From: Bdellovibrionales bacterium
Lineage (GTDB): Bacteria > Bdellovibrionota > Bdellovibrionia > Bdellovibrionales > UBA1609
Direction of reading: 5' to 3'
Assembly (NCBI GenBank): GCA_041690295.1
Contig: JAWLHR010000008.1
Location: forward strand, 1-64,000
DNA length: 64,000 nucleotides
Position numbers: made by a program. Shown piece after piece: positions 42,001-48,000 of this stretch (position 1 is the first letter of the stretch; each line of letters opens with the position of its first letter).

Positions 42001-45000
42001 GATGACGTGGTGAAAAAACTGAATGACGTTGAAACTCGGATTCTACTTCTCTTGTATCAGCTGAATCATGGCCAAACATTTGAAAAACGGTTTTCGCTAC
42101 CCGATAGCTACTCGTATTTGAGTAAACACATGAACTCTCTTGTCTCACGCGCGCTGAGACTCTATTCAGAGGTCGCCAAAGTGACCGAGGAGCAAGAGCT
42201 TGTCTATGATTTCGTCTTGCGCGAGGTTCCTCCCACGCTGGCCATTCACCGGGGCGCGGTGGGCAAGGATTGCTCGAGTCTTTATTCGTTCGCTTTCCCG
42301 TACAGTCCTTTTGAGCGCGTCTGGTGGGTGGAGTCACCCGAGGGGCAACGCTATGGTTATGTCTCGGGTAACATAACTCTTGTGAATGGAACACCCAATC
42401 TCTACATCAGTGATGTCCAAGTGCCAAGTCTTCCGGGCGGGCAAGCCATAGAGTTCATTCTCAAAGCGTTTTATATGATAAAGTCCCATTACGGCGCGAC
42501 TCAAATGACCATTATGCATGAGGACTTCACCTATCAAAATCACATCCCGTTTCATCGCAAGTTCCTCGTGGAAGCCAAAGGCGCCCACAGAACCTATGTC
42601 CGTCAGTCCTATCAGGATAGCGGTTGGCGGGGGGGTGTTCTCAAGGAGTTCAGCCAGAAAGCGGCTCAACGGTTCGATGTGAACTATGACAGTGCCGAAC
42701 GCCACGAACTCGTGCGTCAGGTGTTTTATCCGGGAAGCGAACTCGAGGGACTGGAAGTCGAACGAAAAATTCTAGATTCCCAGTCTTGCGAGAATCTTCT
42801 AGCGGCCAGCTAGGGCAATAGAGCGAATTCACAGGCGCGTTTCTTCTCCAGATCAGCGAAGCGCTTGCTTTTTTCATATTTCTCGACTTCTCCGTCGGTG
42901 ATCCATTTCGGCCAGAGATAATCGCGATGATCTTCCCATTTCTCGCCGGCCTCACTCAAATAACGATGGAACGATTCCAGGGCTTTTTGCGGATTCACCG
43001 GTGGTACGAGTAAGGCGTCGTTCGGGTCCGATATAGGTAAAACGGGGGTTTCGAGCTTCAGGGGAATTGGTTCGTTTAAACGGGAAAGGTAGTTGAGGCG
43101 GGCTTGGAGCAAGCGAATCTGCGCGAGCCAGGTGTAAATGGATTGTTGCGGGCGAACACCTCTAAGTTCAAGACGTCCGCGCGGAAGCGAATCAGCATTT
43201 AAGAAATTGATCGCCACCCACCGAGTTCGAGAAATGTAGTATTTCCCCCACATGTGGAGATAAGGATCATGCATTTCCCAGAAGGCTTTCTTGATATCTT
43301 TGAGAAAGCGGAATGTCCCGGCCGCGACAGGTGCGTAGGCGCCCGCATCGAAGTCTTCGATCACCTTTATGAATTTAATTTTATGGCTTTCGGGAAACAA
43401 AGGGTAAGGGAGCGCGTTGTGAGTGTCATAGTTGAAAATGCCCATGAAAAGTTCGTTATGATTGTGAAGATCGACAATGAAGTTGCGAAGGAGAAGGGGA
43501 TGCTCCATCAAGTCATGGATATCGATGTTGATGTGTCCGCCGCCCAAGAATAGGGCGGGATAACTTTGTTCGTTCCGCGCGGAAACAAATATCGCATCTT
43601 CGATATCGGCGGCGAAACGGGTGAAGTCGTAAACAGTCATCGGCTTCATCTTGATTTCGACCACACTCAAATCGACGGACAGCTCGTATTCCCATCCGTT
43701 CGGTGAGATAAAGACGCGCTTACCGATGGTCCTGAACCTAGCTCCCGGTAACTGGCCATAAACCAGGTGATCCCTCATTCGATGAAAGAACCGCTCAAGA
43801 TAATCATGCTGTCCTTCGGGCGGCGTTTGAAAGGTGAACTCCGGCCCGAACAGAAGTTGGACCTCTGGTGGCTTGGCATGGACGAATCCAGCCAAGAAAA
43901 TGAGAATTATAAAAATTGCATCCTTACCCATGGAAATAACGCGGATTACACCTAAATGACTCGAAGCTTCCGTGCAAGCAGGCCGAAAGTTTTTGCCAAA
44001 TTTTCTTGGAATTTTCTGACGCAATCTGCAATAAAGTGCCATGCGAAAAATTTGGCTCGGCCTTCTCCTGTTTTGGTGGCTGCCCGCTTACGCGCACGAC
44101 ACCAACTGCGAACGAAATCTTTTAGCGGAGTTAGTGACCGCGAACTTCAAAGAACATTTGGTCGAAGTGCCTGATATCCGTGGCCAAGTCGTTAAATTGC
44201 TGGCCGACCAGGAAGTCTCCCGCCGGATGGAATTGGATGCCGACCTGACGGCCCGGCATGAGGCCCGGGAGATGTCCTTTCAAGTCAAAAACGGAATCAC
44301 CGGGCTTTACGATAAATTTGTCGCGGTTGAAGTGAATAGTTTTGTGGCTCCGATTCTCAAATCGGATTTTGATCGCATGGTCGCATCAACCGGACCCTTG
44401 ATGCGGCTGTACCGGCAACTTCTGCAGAAGATTTACTCCATCCCGAACGCCGGAATTGAAGATCTGGGATTCGGCGACCTTCCGCGCGAGGAGGCCGAGC
44501 TGGCGCTTCATACGATCCGTGACTCCATATATCTGGAGCCGGCGCTGATTCACCCCAACATGGCCGAATATCCCTTTTTGGCGGTGGCGGGCTTTGACGG
44601 CGCGGTCGTGGATCCCAAAAGGCCCGCCACGGAATTTTTTGAAACCAATCTCGGCACACCGAGCGGACTCAGCAATAACGTTCAACTCCTTCATGATCTG
44701 TTATGGCTCAACGAGCCCTTGAAAAAGCTGGTCGAGCCTTACCTGCCTAAAGACGACACGTTTCAGATTTTACGTAAAGCCATCGAAAGCAATGCCCGCG
44801 CCTGGACCGGAAAAGAGGGGCTGAGCGTTGTGATCTCGCCAGGGATTTATAACGGCGCCCATCCGGACGTGGCCTCCATCGCACGGGCTTCGGGCATGCC
44901 GCTGGTGAAAAGCAGCGACCTTTATGAGGACCGTGATGGATATATTCGGTTGAATACGGGAAAAGGAGAGGAGGACCCTCTTGTCACCGGTATTTATGGA

Positions 45001-48000
45001 CGAATGGAAGAATCCTTTTTTCTCCAGTCCAACGCCGATAAAATTCCACTGATCAGTCCGAATTTCCAAGACAATCAGGCTTTATCCGAGAGGCTGGGGG
45101 TCGACCTTCGCCCGGGCGCGATTTATGACTTCATCTATGACGACGGGGGCAAAATCGTCGGCGTTCACCGTGACGAAAACGGCGAACCCAAATTTTTGGA
45201 AGTCTGGGATACGATCAGCGAAGATCCTTCGCGGCCGGGTCATAGGGGGAGCTTCGCCAAAGCCATCATCAATCGCAAACTTTATTACAGCAATATCGGC
45301 GGTCGGGTGGTCGATGACAAACGCCTGTTTCGGATCCTGACCAGTTACCTGCTTCCGCAACTTCCGGATATGGCCCGGCCCATCCGGGGCCTGGCCCAGG
45401 ATCAATTCGATCTTTTCTACGCCAACCCATCGAGCTTCGTGGTGAAAGAGCCTGGCAACTCCGGCGGAGTGGGAATTTACTTTCCCCGCGCGATGAGCGA
45501 GAGCGCGGTGGCCGAATTGGTCGAGCGCGTCCGCGCCCGGCCGACGGAATTTGAAATTCAATATCTGAGTGCCATCGCCACTTTGCCGGCGGTGAGCCAA
45601 TCGAAAAGCGGCCGGGAAGTCCATAGTGAGGTCCCCATTGATTTGCGAATTTTCGTGATGATGGATGCGGACGGAAATGTCGACGCCGGACCTAATTCAA
45701 TTCTCTTACGAACCGGCGCGCGGGGCGGGTTGTACACCAACACTTCCCGCGGCGGCGGTTACGGGATCGGCTTGATCCTTGAAGACCAGCCGGGGGTCCG
45801 TGAGACGAAGCCTTTTCAATGGGCGAAAATGCAAGTTGGTCAGTGGCCGAAAAGCCGCGAAACAGAGCTGGCCACCGTGCTCGAACAGGGCACCGCTTTG
45901 ATCAAATGTCTCTTTTCTTTGCGCTTCAATCAGGATGATAAAAAATGGAACGAGTGCCGAAGCCAGGCACTCGACCTTTCCTTCGCTTACCGGCAGGTCA
46001 TGGACTTGATCAGTCCTTGGCATTTGCAAGTGATCGCGACGTTAAGGAACTTCGCCCATGGGCGGGACCGCAACCTGGTTCAAAGCACCGAACTGGCCCG
46101 GCGAATGATTCAATCCTTCCGCCGCATGCGGCAGTCGGAGGGCGCGCTCGCGAACGTGGCCGCTCCCTTTTTCGCGAAGCACGCCCGCGAGTTGGGCCGC
46201 TTGGACCCCGTTGATCTTCAACATTTAAGGCTTCCCACCAAAGCCAAACTTCGCCGATTGGATCCGCCGGAGGTGAGCTATCGCTATGCGCCGGAAGGCA
46301 AGCTTCGCTCGCGGAAAATCGAGTTCGCCGAGTACATTTGGGTCGACAATCCCGAAGTGCAGGAAGTGATCGACGAGGTGAAGGCGTTCGGCGGCCAGGT
46401 GAGATTGCTCATTCGCGAAGTGGCGATCGAGAATCCGGAAGGCGTCGATAAGTGGTTCGGTCGCGAGTCCGCTTATTTCTGGGTGAATCTCAATCCCAAG
46501 TCCCCGTCCTATCTAATGCCCGTGATCGGCATTGATCTGGCCCGGGAGATGTCACTGGCGGCCCTTCATCATGAGCGGGAACATTTCCGGATGTTGCGCG
46601 AACTTTATGCCAATTACCGGCGGCGCGGCTTCGGTCATGAAAAAGCCATGCTCCGAGCCTATGCCGAAACCGAGACGGAAGAGAAAATCGTCGAAGCCGA
46701 ACGGCGTGCGGTGAAGGCTGAGATCAATGCCGAAGTCGAGTATGCCGACCATCCCTATAACCGGTTTTTCGGTAAATCCTGGGAAGCGAATCATTTTTAT
46801 GAAATCGGATTTGTGAACCGGATGACCTATCCGGAGTTTGAAGGCCTGCGCCGGCATTTGCGCCAGGTGAAGTGGGACCGGGTGCCGGTGAAAGAGGATT
46901 TCATCCGTAAAACCTTCTCCGCCGCGATTGATTTCGCGCTAAAGACCCGGGACCAGGCCTTTCTCCACTTTATGGAAAAAGATGATTTAGCCTCCATCCG
47001 GCTGTGGCGTGAATCCAATGTGTTCCTGATGCTCACCCAGCCCTATGGGCATGAGCGGCTGGAATTAGATGGCATTCGCGATGATTTTAAACTCTGGCTG
47101 TCCAAGGTCTGCGCCGAAATGGGCGTGAGTGCCGAAGATTGCGGAGTTCCGGTCCACTAAGTTCACAGAATCAATTTTCGCAGCTCTTCCTGGGTGTAGG
47201 CGTAATCCGCATAGACCATGGTGTTCGTGATGTTTCGATGACCAAGAGCCACTTGGACTAAACGAAGGTCCTTGGTCTTTTTGTAAAGCCTTATGGCGAA
47301 AGTGTGCCTTAGGGCGTGGAGTTTCTTATGGACGGGACGGTAAAGCTCCCAGACCTGGCGCAAACGATTGTACGAGATGGGAAAGAGTAACTGATTTTGA
47401 GCATTGGGGATTTCGCTGACCAACCGGCGGAACAGCCAGCTGGGGACGGGGAGCTCCCGATCGTTGCTGCCCTTAAGACCATGGATGAACACCGACTCAT
47501 CGAACGTATTTAGATCATCGATGCGAAGATTGAGGACCTCTTGGGCTCGGGCGCCGGTGTGCAAGAGCAGCCAAAGAAGGGTGCAGTTGCGTGGATCCTT
47601 GGCCTTGAATGAGTTGAGGATGTGAACCAGCCGATCGTATTCGGGATCCAAGAGGTACTTATTCTTGTTTAATGCGTATCGAACTTTAGTCCGAAACTGT
47701 GCCACATCGTTCCAATCTGGCGAGCGAAATTTTTATATATAAATTCAGTTTAGACGCGAAAAGTAAATTCGAATTCTGCTCACTCACCGTTGCTTATAGC
47801 TCAATTTTCGAGAGTGAAATCAGGTAATGTCAACAACTTAGTACTGTGACTTATAGTTATAATACGAAGTCGATTTTGAATTTGCGCATACCGCGTATAG
47901 GGTTTGGATTTGGGTTCATTGATACATAATTACCAAGCTACCAGCTGGACCCTCTAAAAATTTATTTTACATCGAGTAAGGATGTAAAACACAATTAAAT

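What a model noticed while it worked through the whole genome (the two positions that open the first line are those of the whole stretch)
42810..47160. Sec-exported ATP-dependent amide ligases: a CP-ATP-grasp/HExxH-peptidase fusion and GS/PafA-fold ligases
g01421 is a circularly permuted ATP-grasp ligase with a signal peptide, fused to a C-terminal HExxH domain; g01420 (and its paralogue g01412) is a glutamine-synthetase/Dop/PafA-fold protein with a signal peptide. Both kinds are known as cytoplasmic peptide or protein ligases; their conserved export implies work in an ATP-containing compartment outside the producer.
Evidence so far: Pfam CP_ATPgrasp at 63 bits. Homologues in 7 of 151 genomes, all 7 with a hydrophobic leader; HExxH in the 5 ORFs over 1000 aa, not in the two shorter ones. 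g01420 family in 7 of 151 genomes, 9 ORFs, 8 with a visible leader; invariant F-G-x-E, E, H, R columns; model pLDDT 81 matches GS, Dop, PafA and YbdK, E 5e-5 to 9e-4, TM 0.33-0.42.
(Added by a program. Inside this text positions count along the whole contig: contig position 1 is position 1 of the stretch shown here. "Call 12" and the like, gene names such as g00115 and contig names such as C1 are that model's own, and its searches are not shown. The text may have been shortened before it was handed on; [...] marks where a part breaks off. The agent that wrote the report below was given it as the finding of a first reader that could run no searches.)

Follow-up and report, generated by a model that had tools for sequence, protein, structure and literature searches.

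The report
Exported amide ligases of predatory bacteria
A relative of the predatory bacterium Bdellovibrio exports two ATP-using peptide-bond-forming enzymes that carry a shared short cysteine tag, and the evidence suggests they are effectors that work inside the cytoplasm of a prey or host cell.

Summary
g01421 is a signal peptide, a CxxxL tag, a catalytically intact circularly permuted (CP) ATP-grasp, a four-helix bundle and an HExxH..E domain. g01420 and g01412 are signal-peptide GS-fold amidoligases of the DUF2126/Amidoligase_2 branch with a C-terminal CxxxL tag.

New evidence for a foreign-cytoplasm destination: (1) a second Leu/Phe-tRNA-protein transferase, which needs aminoacyl-tRNA, carries the same leader and tag in 11 of 11 copies, while housekeeping copies do not; (2) myxobacterial-type g01421 homologues swap the Sec leader for an S/P/T-rich leader in genomes with several type III export gates; (3) CP-ATP-grasps gained export twice in this phylum, and the second family co-occurs with the amidoligase (22/38 vs 42/362 genomes) and is fused to it once.

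Best reading: prey-delivered enzymes for two-step amide ligation plus trimming, next to an exported ClpB-M41 protease. The product is unknown.

Corrections: leaders are not universal. Exported GS-fold and CP-ATP-grasp effectors are already known (ACD toxin, nematode effectors). g01421 itself does not co-occur with the amidoligase across genomes. No delivery route or activity is shown.

The parts
44041..47160 (+). g01421: exported CP-ATP-grasp / helical bundle / HExxH fusion, 1039 aa
   Evidence: (pLDDT 93.9)
44041..44094 (+). Predicted Sec signal peptide, aa 1-18, ending in A-x-A
   Evidence: sequence; leader rule; heuristic only
44107..44121 (+). CxxxL tag (C23-L27) just after the predicted cleavage site
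   Evidence: 41 of 41 leader-bearing homologues have a Cys here, L/F at +4 in 29
44125..45783 (+). CP-ATP-grasp domain, aa 29-581; D186, E201, N203, K427, K469, N567 invariant
   Evidence: 3n6x Z 33.3, rmsd 3.6, 434 aligned; residues shared with 16 canonical proteins
45841..46164 (+). Four-helix bundle, aa 601-708; not detectably alpha-E
   Evidence: hhalign P 0.2% against alpha-E
46228..47157 (+). Zincin-like domain, H844-E845-x-x-H848 plus E887; a mobile module
   Evidence: weak M78 and DUF6782 leads only
42810..43931 (-). g01420: exported GS-fold amidoligase, 373 aa; E31, D87, E92, H133, R253, E255, R257
43875..43931 (-). g01420 predicted signal peptide, aa 1-19
   Evidence: heuristic only
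42819..42833 (-). g01420 C-terminal CxxxL tag (C367-L371), its only Cys, in the last helix
   Evidence: Cys in the last 25 aa in 118 of 120, Leu at +4 in 111
26968..28146 (-). g01412: paralogous amidoligase with leader and tag
28151..32008 (-). Exported ClpB-like AAA / M41 peptidase fusion; three intact Walker A motifs, HExxH, C-terminal tag; syntenic with the ligases in L003, L006, L171, L174
32175..42813 (.). Rest of the island: four paralogues of an unclassified family (32175-33590, 36609-38798, 38972-41389, 41386-42813) and two M28 peptidases (33686-34807, 34948-36612), all with leader and tag
47163..47705 (-). Small tyrosine recombinase at the island edge; also beside the cluster in L006 and L172

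Best explanation
Both proteins are effectors. They cross the inner membrane by Sec (inferred from the leaders) and are then routed, probably by the CxxxL tag, into the cytoplasm of a prey or host cell (inferred; route unknown). There they use the victim's ATP. The GS-fold enzyme phosphorylates a gamma-carboxylate (glutamate or a Glu side chain) and links it to an amine. The CP-ATP-grasp activates an alpha-carboxylate and adds the next unit, as GshA then GshB do. The HExxH domain trims or reverses the product. Folds and conserved residues are shown; chemistry is inferred from the families. I rank the product as a Glu/Gln-containing tag on victim proteins that feeds the co-exported ClpB-M41 protease (about 55% within this explanation) over a small gamma-glutamyl peptide that drains or subverts victim metabolites (about 45%).
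For: A tagged Aat paralogue: 11 of 11 with leader and CExxL by eye (9 pass the rule), against 0 of 4 other copies and G000's housekeeping copy; catalytic motifs kept; one clade 100/100. Aat needs aminoacyl-tRNA (established knowledge). Twenty-one full-length g01421 homologues have an S/P/T-rich leader instead; the 4 such genomes tested hold 2-4 HrcV genes over cut-off each, and only 1 of 78 other genomes of that phylum has two. Export arose twice: (g01421 family + leaderless sister) versus (second exported family + canonical), 100 support, single exported clade rejected at p-AU 7e-6. The second family has leaders in 21 of 24 and tags in 17 of 24, co-occurs with the amidoligase in 22 of 38 versus 42 of 362 genomes (also within two families, p 0.007 and 0.0002), and is fused to it in L053. 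A transglutaminase-like plus amidoligase fusion with leader and tag exists too (L070). In g01421's own clade the genes are neighbours (L003, L006, and 9 of 72 shared contig lengths). Tandem arrays of up to six amidoligases (L173) and patchy presence (0 of 3 same-genus genomes) fit effectors.
Against: No delivery machine was found: G000 has no VipB or TrbI match and no HrcV over cut-off, only four secretins. Its lifestyle is unknown. The tagged set also holds proteins that work outside a cytoplasm (solute-binding protein, PhoD, trehalase, Lnb_N), and 8 of 28 amidoligase relatives look like lipoproteins by a loose pattern. g01421-type genes do not co-occur with the amidoligase across genomes (1 of 8 vs 64 of 400), and 38 of 40 loci lack it nearby. 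The second Glu of the GS E-x-E motif is Thr in 106 of 120, so ligase activity is not assured. 44 of 81 genomes of the myxobacterial phylum have some HrcV, and kin are not independent. Leaderless short members sit inside the exported clade. For the canonical ATP-grasp only phosphate release has been shown (PMC6376114, passages).
Confidence: 0.5

Rival explanations
1. The enzymes are simply secreted and act on prey contents after the prey membrane leaks (bdelloplast or lysed cell). No translocation step is needed, and the tag is a secretion or folding signal.
For: Bdellovibrio releases enzyme cocktails that break down prey cytoplasm and inner membrane (PMC3818213, passage); four secretins in G000; many tagged hydrolases.
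Against: Aat needs charged tRNA, which is short-lived outside a working cytoplasm (inference); swap to type III-like leaders.
Confidence: 0.2
2. They work in the producer's own periplasm or on its surface, using extracytoplasmic ATP as Lig E is thought to, and modify envelope peptides or glycans.
For: Lig E precedent (10.64898/2026.03.22.713542, passages); lipoprotein-like relatives; earlier scan notes on signal-peptide ATP-grasps in glycan operons (unchecked).
Against: Extracellular ATP is about 25 nM in that paper, below the Km even of Lig E; tagged Aat and a three-module AAA protease are hard to run there; no glycan genes in the island; patchy distribution.
Confidence: 0.13
3. They are delivered to a foreign cytoplasm but act independently, and not as ligases in series: the GS-fold paralogues are Dop-like deamidases or single-target cross-linkers like ACD, and g01421 self-conjugates or hydrolyses ATP.
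For: E-x-T change; Dop is third in the fold search, Z 11.4; no genome-level co-occurrence with g01421; conserved terminal Gln in the g01421 family suggests chemistry in cis.
Against: Fusion and co-occurrence of the amidoligase with the second CP-ATP-grasp family; DUF2126 shares E-x-T and sits beside canonical CP-ATP-grasps.
Confidence: 0.14
4. The leaders are artefacts of start calling and the enzymes are cytoplasmic.
For: No SignalP; leaderless relatives exist.
Against: 104 of 120 and 41 of 72 against a 4.8% false-positive rate and 0 of 16 and 0 of 7 in controls; in most amidoligases the catalytic motif starts 21-34 residues from the start.
Confidence: 0.03

Closest known systems
Anbu-operon system (CP-ATP-grasp, alpha-E, transglutaminase, Anbu; often DUF2126)
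   Same: Same ligase family with the same catalytic residues; g01420 matches DUF2126 by profile, P 89%, E 2e-6; proposed role in protein tagging (PMC6376114, passages).
   Different: Exported and tagged; no alpha-E, transglutaminase or Anbu in the island; fused bundle and HExxH domain; forms a separate clade.
Nematode glutathione-synthetase-like effectors (GSS22, GSS30; PMC5919673)
   Same: CP-ATP-grasp fold (5oet Z 19.6); a housekeeping gene that gained a signal peptide and is delivered into a host cell.
   Different: Eukaryotic parasite, glutathione-synthetase ancestry, stylet delivery (recalled), no peptidase domain, 11-13% identity.
Actin cross-linking domain of MARTX/VgrG toxins (PMC2908040)
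   Same: GS-family ligase translocated into a foreign cytosol, ATP-dependent isopeptide formation.
   Different: Only Z 5.7, rank 40; part of large type I/VI toxins; g01420 is stand-alone, Sec-type and multi-copy.
Bifunctional glutathione synthetase GshF and glutathionylspermidine synthetase/amidase
   Same: GS-fold plus ATP-grasp in one chain (as in L053); CP-ATP-grasp plus hydrolase in one chain (as in g01421); both appear in the fold searches.
   Different: Cytoplasmic; GshF's ATP-grasp is not permuted and the Gsp amidase is a CHAP cysteine enzyme (both recalled), not HExxH.
R2K/CDC123 ATP-grasps of type VI toxin loci and Legionella (PMC4431377, PMC11696984)
   Same: Predicted bacterial ATP-grasp effectors that add peptide tags.
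   Different: Different ATP-grasp clade; type IV/VI delivery, which G000 appears to lack.
Lig E
   Same: Signal-peptide ATP-dependent ligase of Gram-negative bacteria.
   Different: DNA ligase thought to use extracellular ATP; no CxxxL tag mentioned in the passages read.

Membership tests
CP-ATP-grasp type 2 (PF14403) | Profile score over the curated cut-off | tested here: met
   63.2 bits vs 32
CP-ATP-grasp type 2 (PF14403) | Permuted ATP-grasp fold | tested here: met
   3n6x Z 33.3, rmsd 3.6, 434 aligned
CP-ATP-grasp type 2 (PF14403) | Metal E-x-N, two ATP lysines, D and N of the active site | tested here: met
   D186, E201, N203, K427, K469, N567 in 72 of 72 and 16 of 16
CP-ATP-grasp type 2 (PF14403) | Amide-ligase activity | not testable with these tools
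   needs an assay
Anbu-operon tagging system | Adjacent alpha-E and transglutaminase genes | tested here: not met
   none among 25 window proteins scanned; bundle and HExxH domain do not match alpha-E; neighbours in other loci were read by eye only
Anbu-operon tagging system | No export signal | tested here: not met
   0 of 16 canonical proteins have a leader; g01421 does
COOH-NH2 ligases, Amidoligase_2 / DUF2126 branch | GS/GCL fold | tested here: met
   2gwc Z 12.1, rmsd 4.9, 258 aligned; 1tt4 Z 11.8
COOH-NH2 ligases, Amidoligase_2 / DUF2126 branch | Pfam profile over cut-off | tested here: not met
   no hit for g01420; 5 of 120 members hit DUF2126 weakly, best 6e-4. So a new subfamily: ESM features 0.95 to Amidoligase_2, hhalign P 89% to DUF2126
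COOH-NH2 ligases, Amidoligase_2 / DUF2126 branch | Metal and substrate residues (E, D/E, E, H, R, E, R) | tested here: met
   115-120 of 120 each; second Glu of E-x-E is Thr as in DUF2126
PafA/Dop pupylation | Pup and proteasome partner genes | not tested
   fold likeness only (Z 11.1-11.4, tied with GCL and GS); none seen in the island
Actin cross-linking domain | Specific structural kinship | tested here: inconclusive
   Z 5.7, rmsd 4.3, 176 aligned, among background rows
Zincin metallopeptidase (M78 / DUF6782-like) | HExxH plus a downstream Glu ligand | tested here: met
   H 95%, E 90%, H 92%, E887 97% of 61
Zincin metallopeptidase (M78 / DUF6782-like) | Family profile or fold match | tested here: inconclusive
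   no PDB sequence hit; Pfam none for g01421; one relative M78 E 4e-4, under cut-off; domain not folded alone
Type III-secreted effector (leader-swapped homologues) | S/P/T-rich leader and injectisome in the genome | tested here: inconclusive
   mean S/P/T 0.27 vs 0.17; 4 of 4 genomes with >=2 HrcV; background 44 of 81 with >=1

The most novel reading that the evidence does not exclude
Bdellovibrionota use an undescribed two-step route (Sec plus a CxxxL tag that may sit at either end of the mature protein) to place folded enzymes in prey cytoplasm. One cargo set is a complete imported tag-and-degrade kit: GS-fold amidoligases, a CP-ATP-grasp/peptidase, a Leu/Phe-tRNA transferase and a ClpB-M41 protease that mark and digest prey proteins with the prey's own ATP and tRNA.
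Probability: 0.25. Interest if true: 0.9.

Novelty: new variant of a known kind. Interest (0 to 1): 0.7.

Why it matters
How Bdellovibrio-type predators act on prey cytoplasm is open. These families give named cargo, a testable tag, and an internal control (the tRNA-dependent transferase). They are also exported, partner-free versions of the CP-ATP-grasp/DUF2126 enzymes whose product has not been identified, so they offer a simpler way to find that chemistry. Repeated gain of export from in-house enzymes parallels effector birth in nematodes.

Tried and rejected
Bundle or HExxH domain as alpha-E, or as the operon-linked zinc peptidase of L107: no profile match. PDB sequence searches with the amidoligase and HExxH alignments: 0 hits. 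PHROGs, NCBIfam and phage tblastn for g01420: nothing. The terminal Gln as a feature special to export: rejected, because the leaderless sister family has it too (7 of 7) and g01421 lacks it. An obligatory g01421-g01420 pair: rejected. HrcV presence alone as evidence: weak. Expression: no RNA holder listed. The promoter scan gave no more sites than shuffles. The HExxH domain and the four unclassified paralogues were not folded alone (both fold jobs spent); their likeness to GNAT/PcfJ domains is recalled and untested. Literature searches listed no paper on these families or the tag; the library lacks most subscription papers, Iyer et al. 2009 was not held, and no supplements were read, where such gene lists could stand. 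Scan look-ups by place, words and sequence returned nothing.
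Full report
SETTING. The window is the start of contig C8 of a 2.88-Mb, 99.9% complete genome. Its closest g01421 homologues are in records titled Bdellovibrionales. From 26968 to 47160 lie ten genes that all have a hydrophobic leader and a C-x-x-x-L motif, either just after the leader or near the C-terminus, ending at a small tyrosine recombinase.

OBSERVATION. g01421 (44041-47160, +) scores 63.2 bits on CP_ATPgrasp_2. Its model (pLDDT 93.9) matches 3n6x at Z 33.3 over mature residues 11-563, then glutathione synthetases, nematode GS-like effectors and Gsp/trypanothione synthetases at Z 17-20. D186, E201, N203, K427, K469 and N567 are invariant in 72 family rows and 16 canonical proteins. 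A four-helix bundle follows, then a domain with H844-E845-H848 and E887, conserved in 90-97% of 61 rows. It is the only CP-ATP-grasp found in the genome. g01420 (42810-43931, -) models at pLDDT 95.7; the top 18 matches are GS/GCL/YbdK/Dop/PafA-type, best Z 12.1. Pfam does not call it, but language-model features place it with Amidoligase_2 at 0.95 and its profile matches DUF2126 at P 89%, E 2e-6, with the same E-x-T, D-x-G-V-x-E, GGG-H and E-x-R motifs. Leaders were judged by a hydropathy rule, not SignalP: 41 of 72, 104 of 120 (two are the window's own) and 0 of 16 canonical controls, with 4.8% false positives.

THE TAG. A Cys lies in the last 25 residues of 118 of 120 amidoligases, with Leu four on in 111, and 63 of 120 have no other Cys in the core. 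All 41 leader-bearing g01421 homologues have a Cys after the leader, with L/F four on in 29. In G000 the motif is enriched in leader-bearing soluble ORFs: 45 of 890 vs 29 of 1223 at the N-terminus and 23 of 890 vs 15 of 1223 at the C-terminus; that looser multi-start rule over-calls leaders. Of 40 candidates that I picked by eye and scanned, 28 had no Pfam hit; the rest include hydrolases, a solute-binding protein, an ATP-dependent DNA ligase and a Leu/Phe-tRNA-protein transferase.

WHERE DO THEY WORK. ATP use alone is not decisive, because Lig E is a signal-peptide ligase thought to use extracellular ATP (10.64898/2026.03.22.713542, passages). The transferase is more telling. G000 has two aat genes. 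Among the 15 loci returned of 44 matches, 11 form one clade (100/100), all with leader and CExxL by eye (9 pass the rule) and with the catalytic motifs kept; the other four and G000's housekeeping copy have neither. Aat needs aminoacyl-tRNA (established knowledge), so this class plausibly reaches a translating cytoplasm. Second, 21 full-length g01421 homologues replace the Sec leader by an S/P/T-rich stretch; they nest among leader-bearing rows, with at least three changes forced by starred branches (leader labels of locus rows were set by eye). The four such genomes tested each hold 2-4 HrcV genes over cut-off; 44 of 81 genomes of that phylum have one, but only 1 of the 78 others has two. Kin are not independent, and a fifth genome was not tested. 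Against: G000 shows no VipB, TrbI or over-cut-off HrcV, only four secretins; some relatives look like lipoproteins; L026, L028 and L211 are leaderless members inside the clade.

ORIGINS. The g01421 profile hit 58 of 401 phylum genomes. Eight besides G000 are the g01421 family; most others are a leaderless sister family of 1180-1310 aa with the same plan (CP-ATP-grasp, HExxH, weak DUF6782 match) followed by a conserved unclassified gene. All 7 complete members examined end in QQ; 43 of 72 g01421 homologues end in Gln, against 101 of 2326 genome ORFs and 0 of 16 canonical ATP-grasps; 6 of 8 canonical alpha-E proteins have a Gln-rich or Gln-ended tail (one false hit dropped). g01421 has lost this tail. 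A second exported CP-ATP-grasp family occurs in 38 of 401 genomes, with leaders in 21 of 24, tags in 17 of 24 (25 loci seen, one open at the 5' end dropped) and intact catalytic residues in 20 of 20. Trees join g01421's family to the leaderless family and the second family to the canonical one; one exported clade is rejected at p-AU 7e-6, though the groups were named after a first tree and long branches meet. Two gains of export is the simplest reading.

DO THE TWO LIGASES COOPERATE. The amidoligase profile hit 117 of 401 genomes, 0 of 3 of the same genus, and 3 of 201 in the myxobacterial phylum. I kept 64 near-full-length hits by eye. It is fused to a second-family CP-ATP-grasp in L053, adjacent in a different frame in G403, and fused to a transglutaminase-like domain in L070. 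It co-occurs with the second family in 22 of 38 vs 42 of 362 genomes, and within two families separately (11/17 vs 10/40; 6/8 vs 10/92). With g01421's family it does not co-occur overall (1 of 8) and is adjacent in 2 of 40 loci. Nine of 72 homologues share an exact contig length with amidoligases (only one confirmed as DNA), all within the 30-row clade that holds g01421. The AAA-M41 gene accompanies the cluster in L003, L006, L171 and L174, and arrays reach six amidoligases in L173. The HExxH module also occurs alone with leader and tag, or fused to SecA-like, MutS-like or pentapeptide domains (148 representatives).

MECHANISM. Shown: folds, conserved catalytic residues, leaders by rule, tag, linkage statistics. 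Inferred: Sec export, tag-guided delivery, gamma-glutamyl-phosphate and acyl-phosphate chemistry in series, trimming by the HExxH domain. Guessed: the product. A protein tag feeding the AAA-M41 protease fits the company these genes keep and the tagging hypothesis for the Anbu operon (PMC6376114, passages, which says the hypotheses are unconfirmed). A small gamma-glutamyl peptide fits the GshF-like fusion. The E-to-T change in the amidoligase leaves a Dop-like hydrolase role open.

KNOWN VERSUS NEW. Exported amide-ligase effectors exist: ACD (PMC2908040, abstract and outline; PMC3448709, search listing), nematode GS-like effectors (PMC5919673, abstract and outline) and predicted R2K ATP-grasps (PMC4431377 and PMC11696984, passages). 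Passages of PMC12419801, 10.1101/2022.06.13.496000 and PMC3818213 describe Bdellovibrio secreted effectors but no route to prey cytoplasm. Six searches listed nothing on these families or the tag; Iyer et al. 2009 was not held and is known to me only from recall and citations, and no supplements were read. One earlier scan note reached a like idea for another ATP-grasp type in a Bdellovibrio; it is unchecked and not independent support.

VERDICT. Real, conserved and catalytically plausible; a new variant of a known kind, interest 0.7. The delivery route and the product are the open and testable points.

Noticed in passing
G000:C20:19282-20130 (L166) and L183-L192: A second Leu/Phe-tRNA-protein transferase with signal peptide and CExxL tag, a conserved clade beside the housekeeping copy.
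   Followed up: yes
L236-L242: Leaderless 1180-1310 aa CP-ATP-grasp/HExxH family ending in QQ, followed in 6 of 7 loci by a conserved 600-740 aa gene with one hydrophobic segment and no Pfam match.
   Followed up: partly
L053:1357-3951, L247-L270, L272: Second exported CP-ATP-grasp family in 38 of 401 genomes; fused to the amidoligase in one genome and adjacent in another frame in a second.
   Followed up: yes
L070:1315-3126: Signal peptide, transglutaminase-like domain, amidoligase and tag in one chain, echoing DUF2126 architecture.
   Followed up: partly
L074-L079, L081: 1000-2100 aa exported proteins, many lipoprotein-like, with an Amidoligase_2-like domain and a terminal Cys tag; common in one family of the phylum.
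   Followed up: partly
window 32175-33590, 36609-38798, 38972-41389, 41386-42813: Four paralogues with a conserved R-G-x-V-G-x-D-C-S motif and no Pfam, PHROG, NCBIfam or credible PDB match; a GNAT/PcfJ-like fold is a recalled guess.
   Followed up: partly
window 28151-32008: Exported ClpB-like AAA / M41 peptidase fusion with three Walker A motifs, conserved with leader and tag in L003 and L006.
   Followed up: partly
L015:5353-9519: SecA-like DEAD domain fused to the same HExxH module, divergent from a g01421 homologue; other HExxH modules are fused to MutS-like or pentapeptide domains.
   Followed up: partly
G000:C4:52896-53609 (L134): Minimal ATP-dependent DNA ligase domain with signal peptide and tag.
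   Followed up: no
L084-L090, L107: Canonical alpha-E proteins often end in Gln-rich tails (6 of 8), a possible transglutaminase or ligase substrate in the Anbu system.
   Followed up: no
L244, L245: Myxobacterial-phylum amidoligase relatives with a long polar leader followed by an internal signal-like hydrophobic stretch.
   Followed up: no
window 49417-50746: Iron-containing redox enzyme gene with an unclassified partner; a similar-looking pair lies downstream of the recombinase in L006.
   Followed up: no
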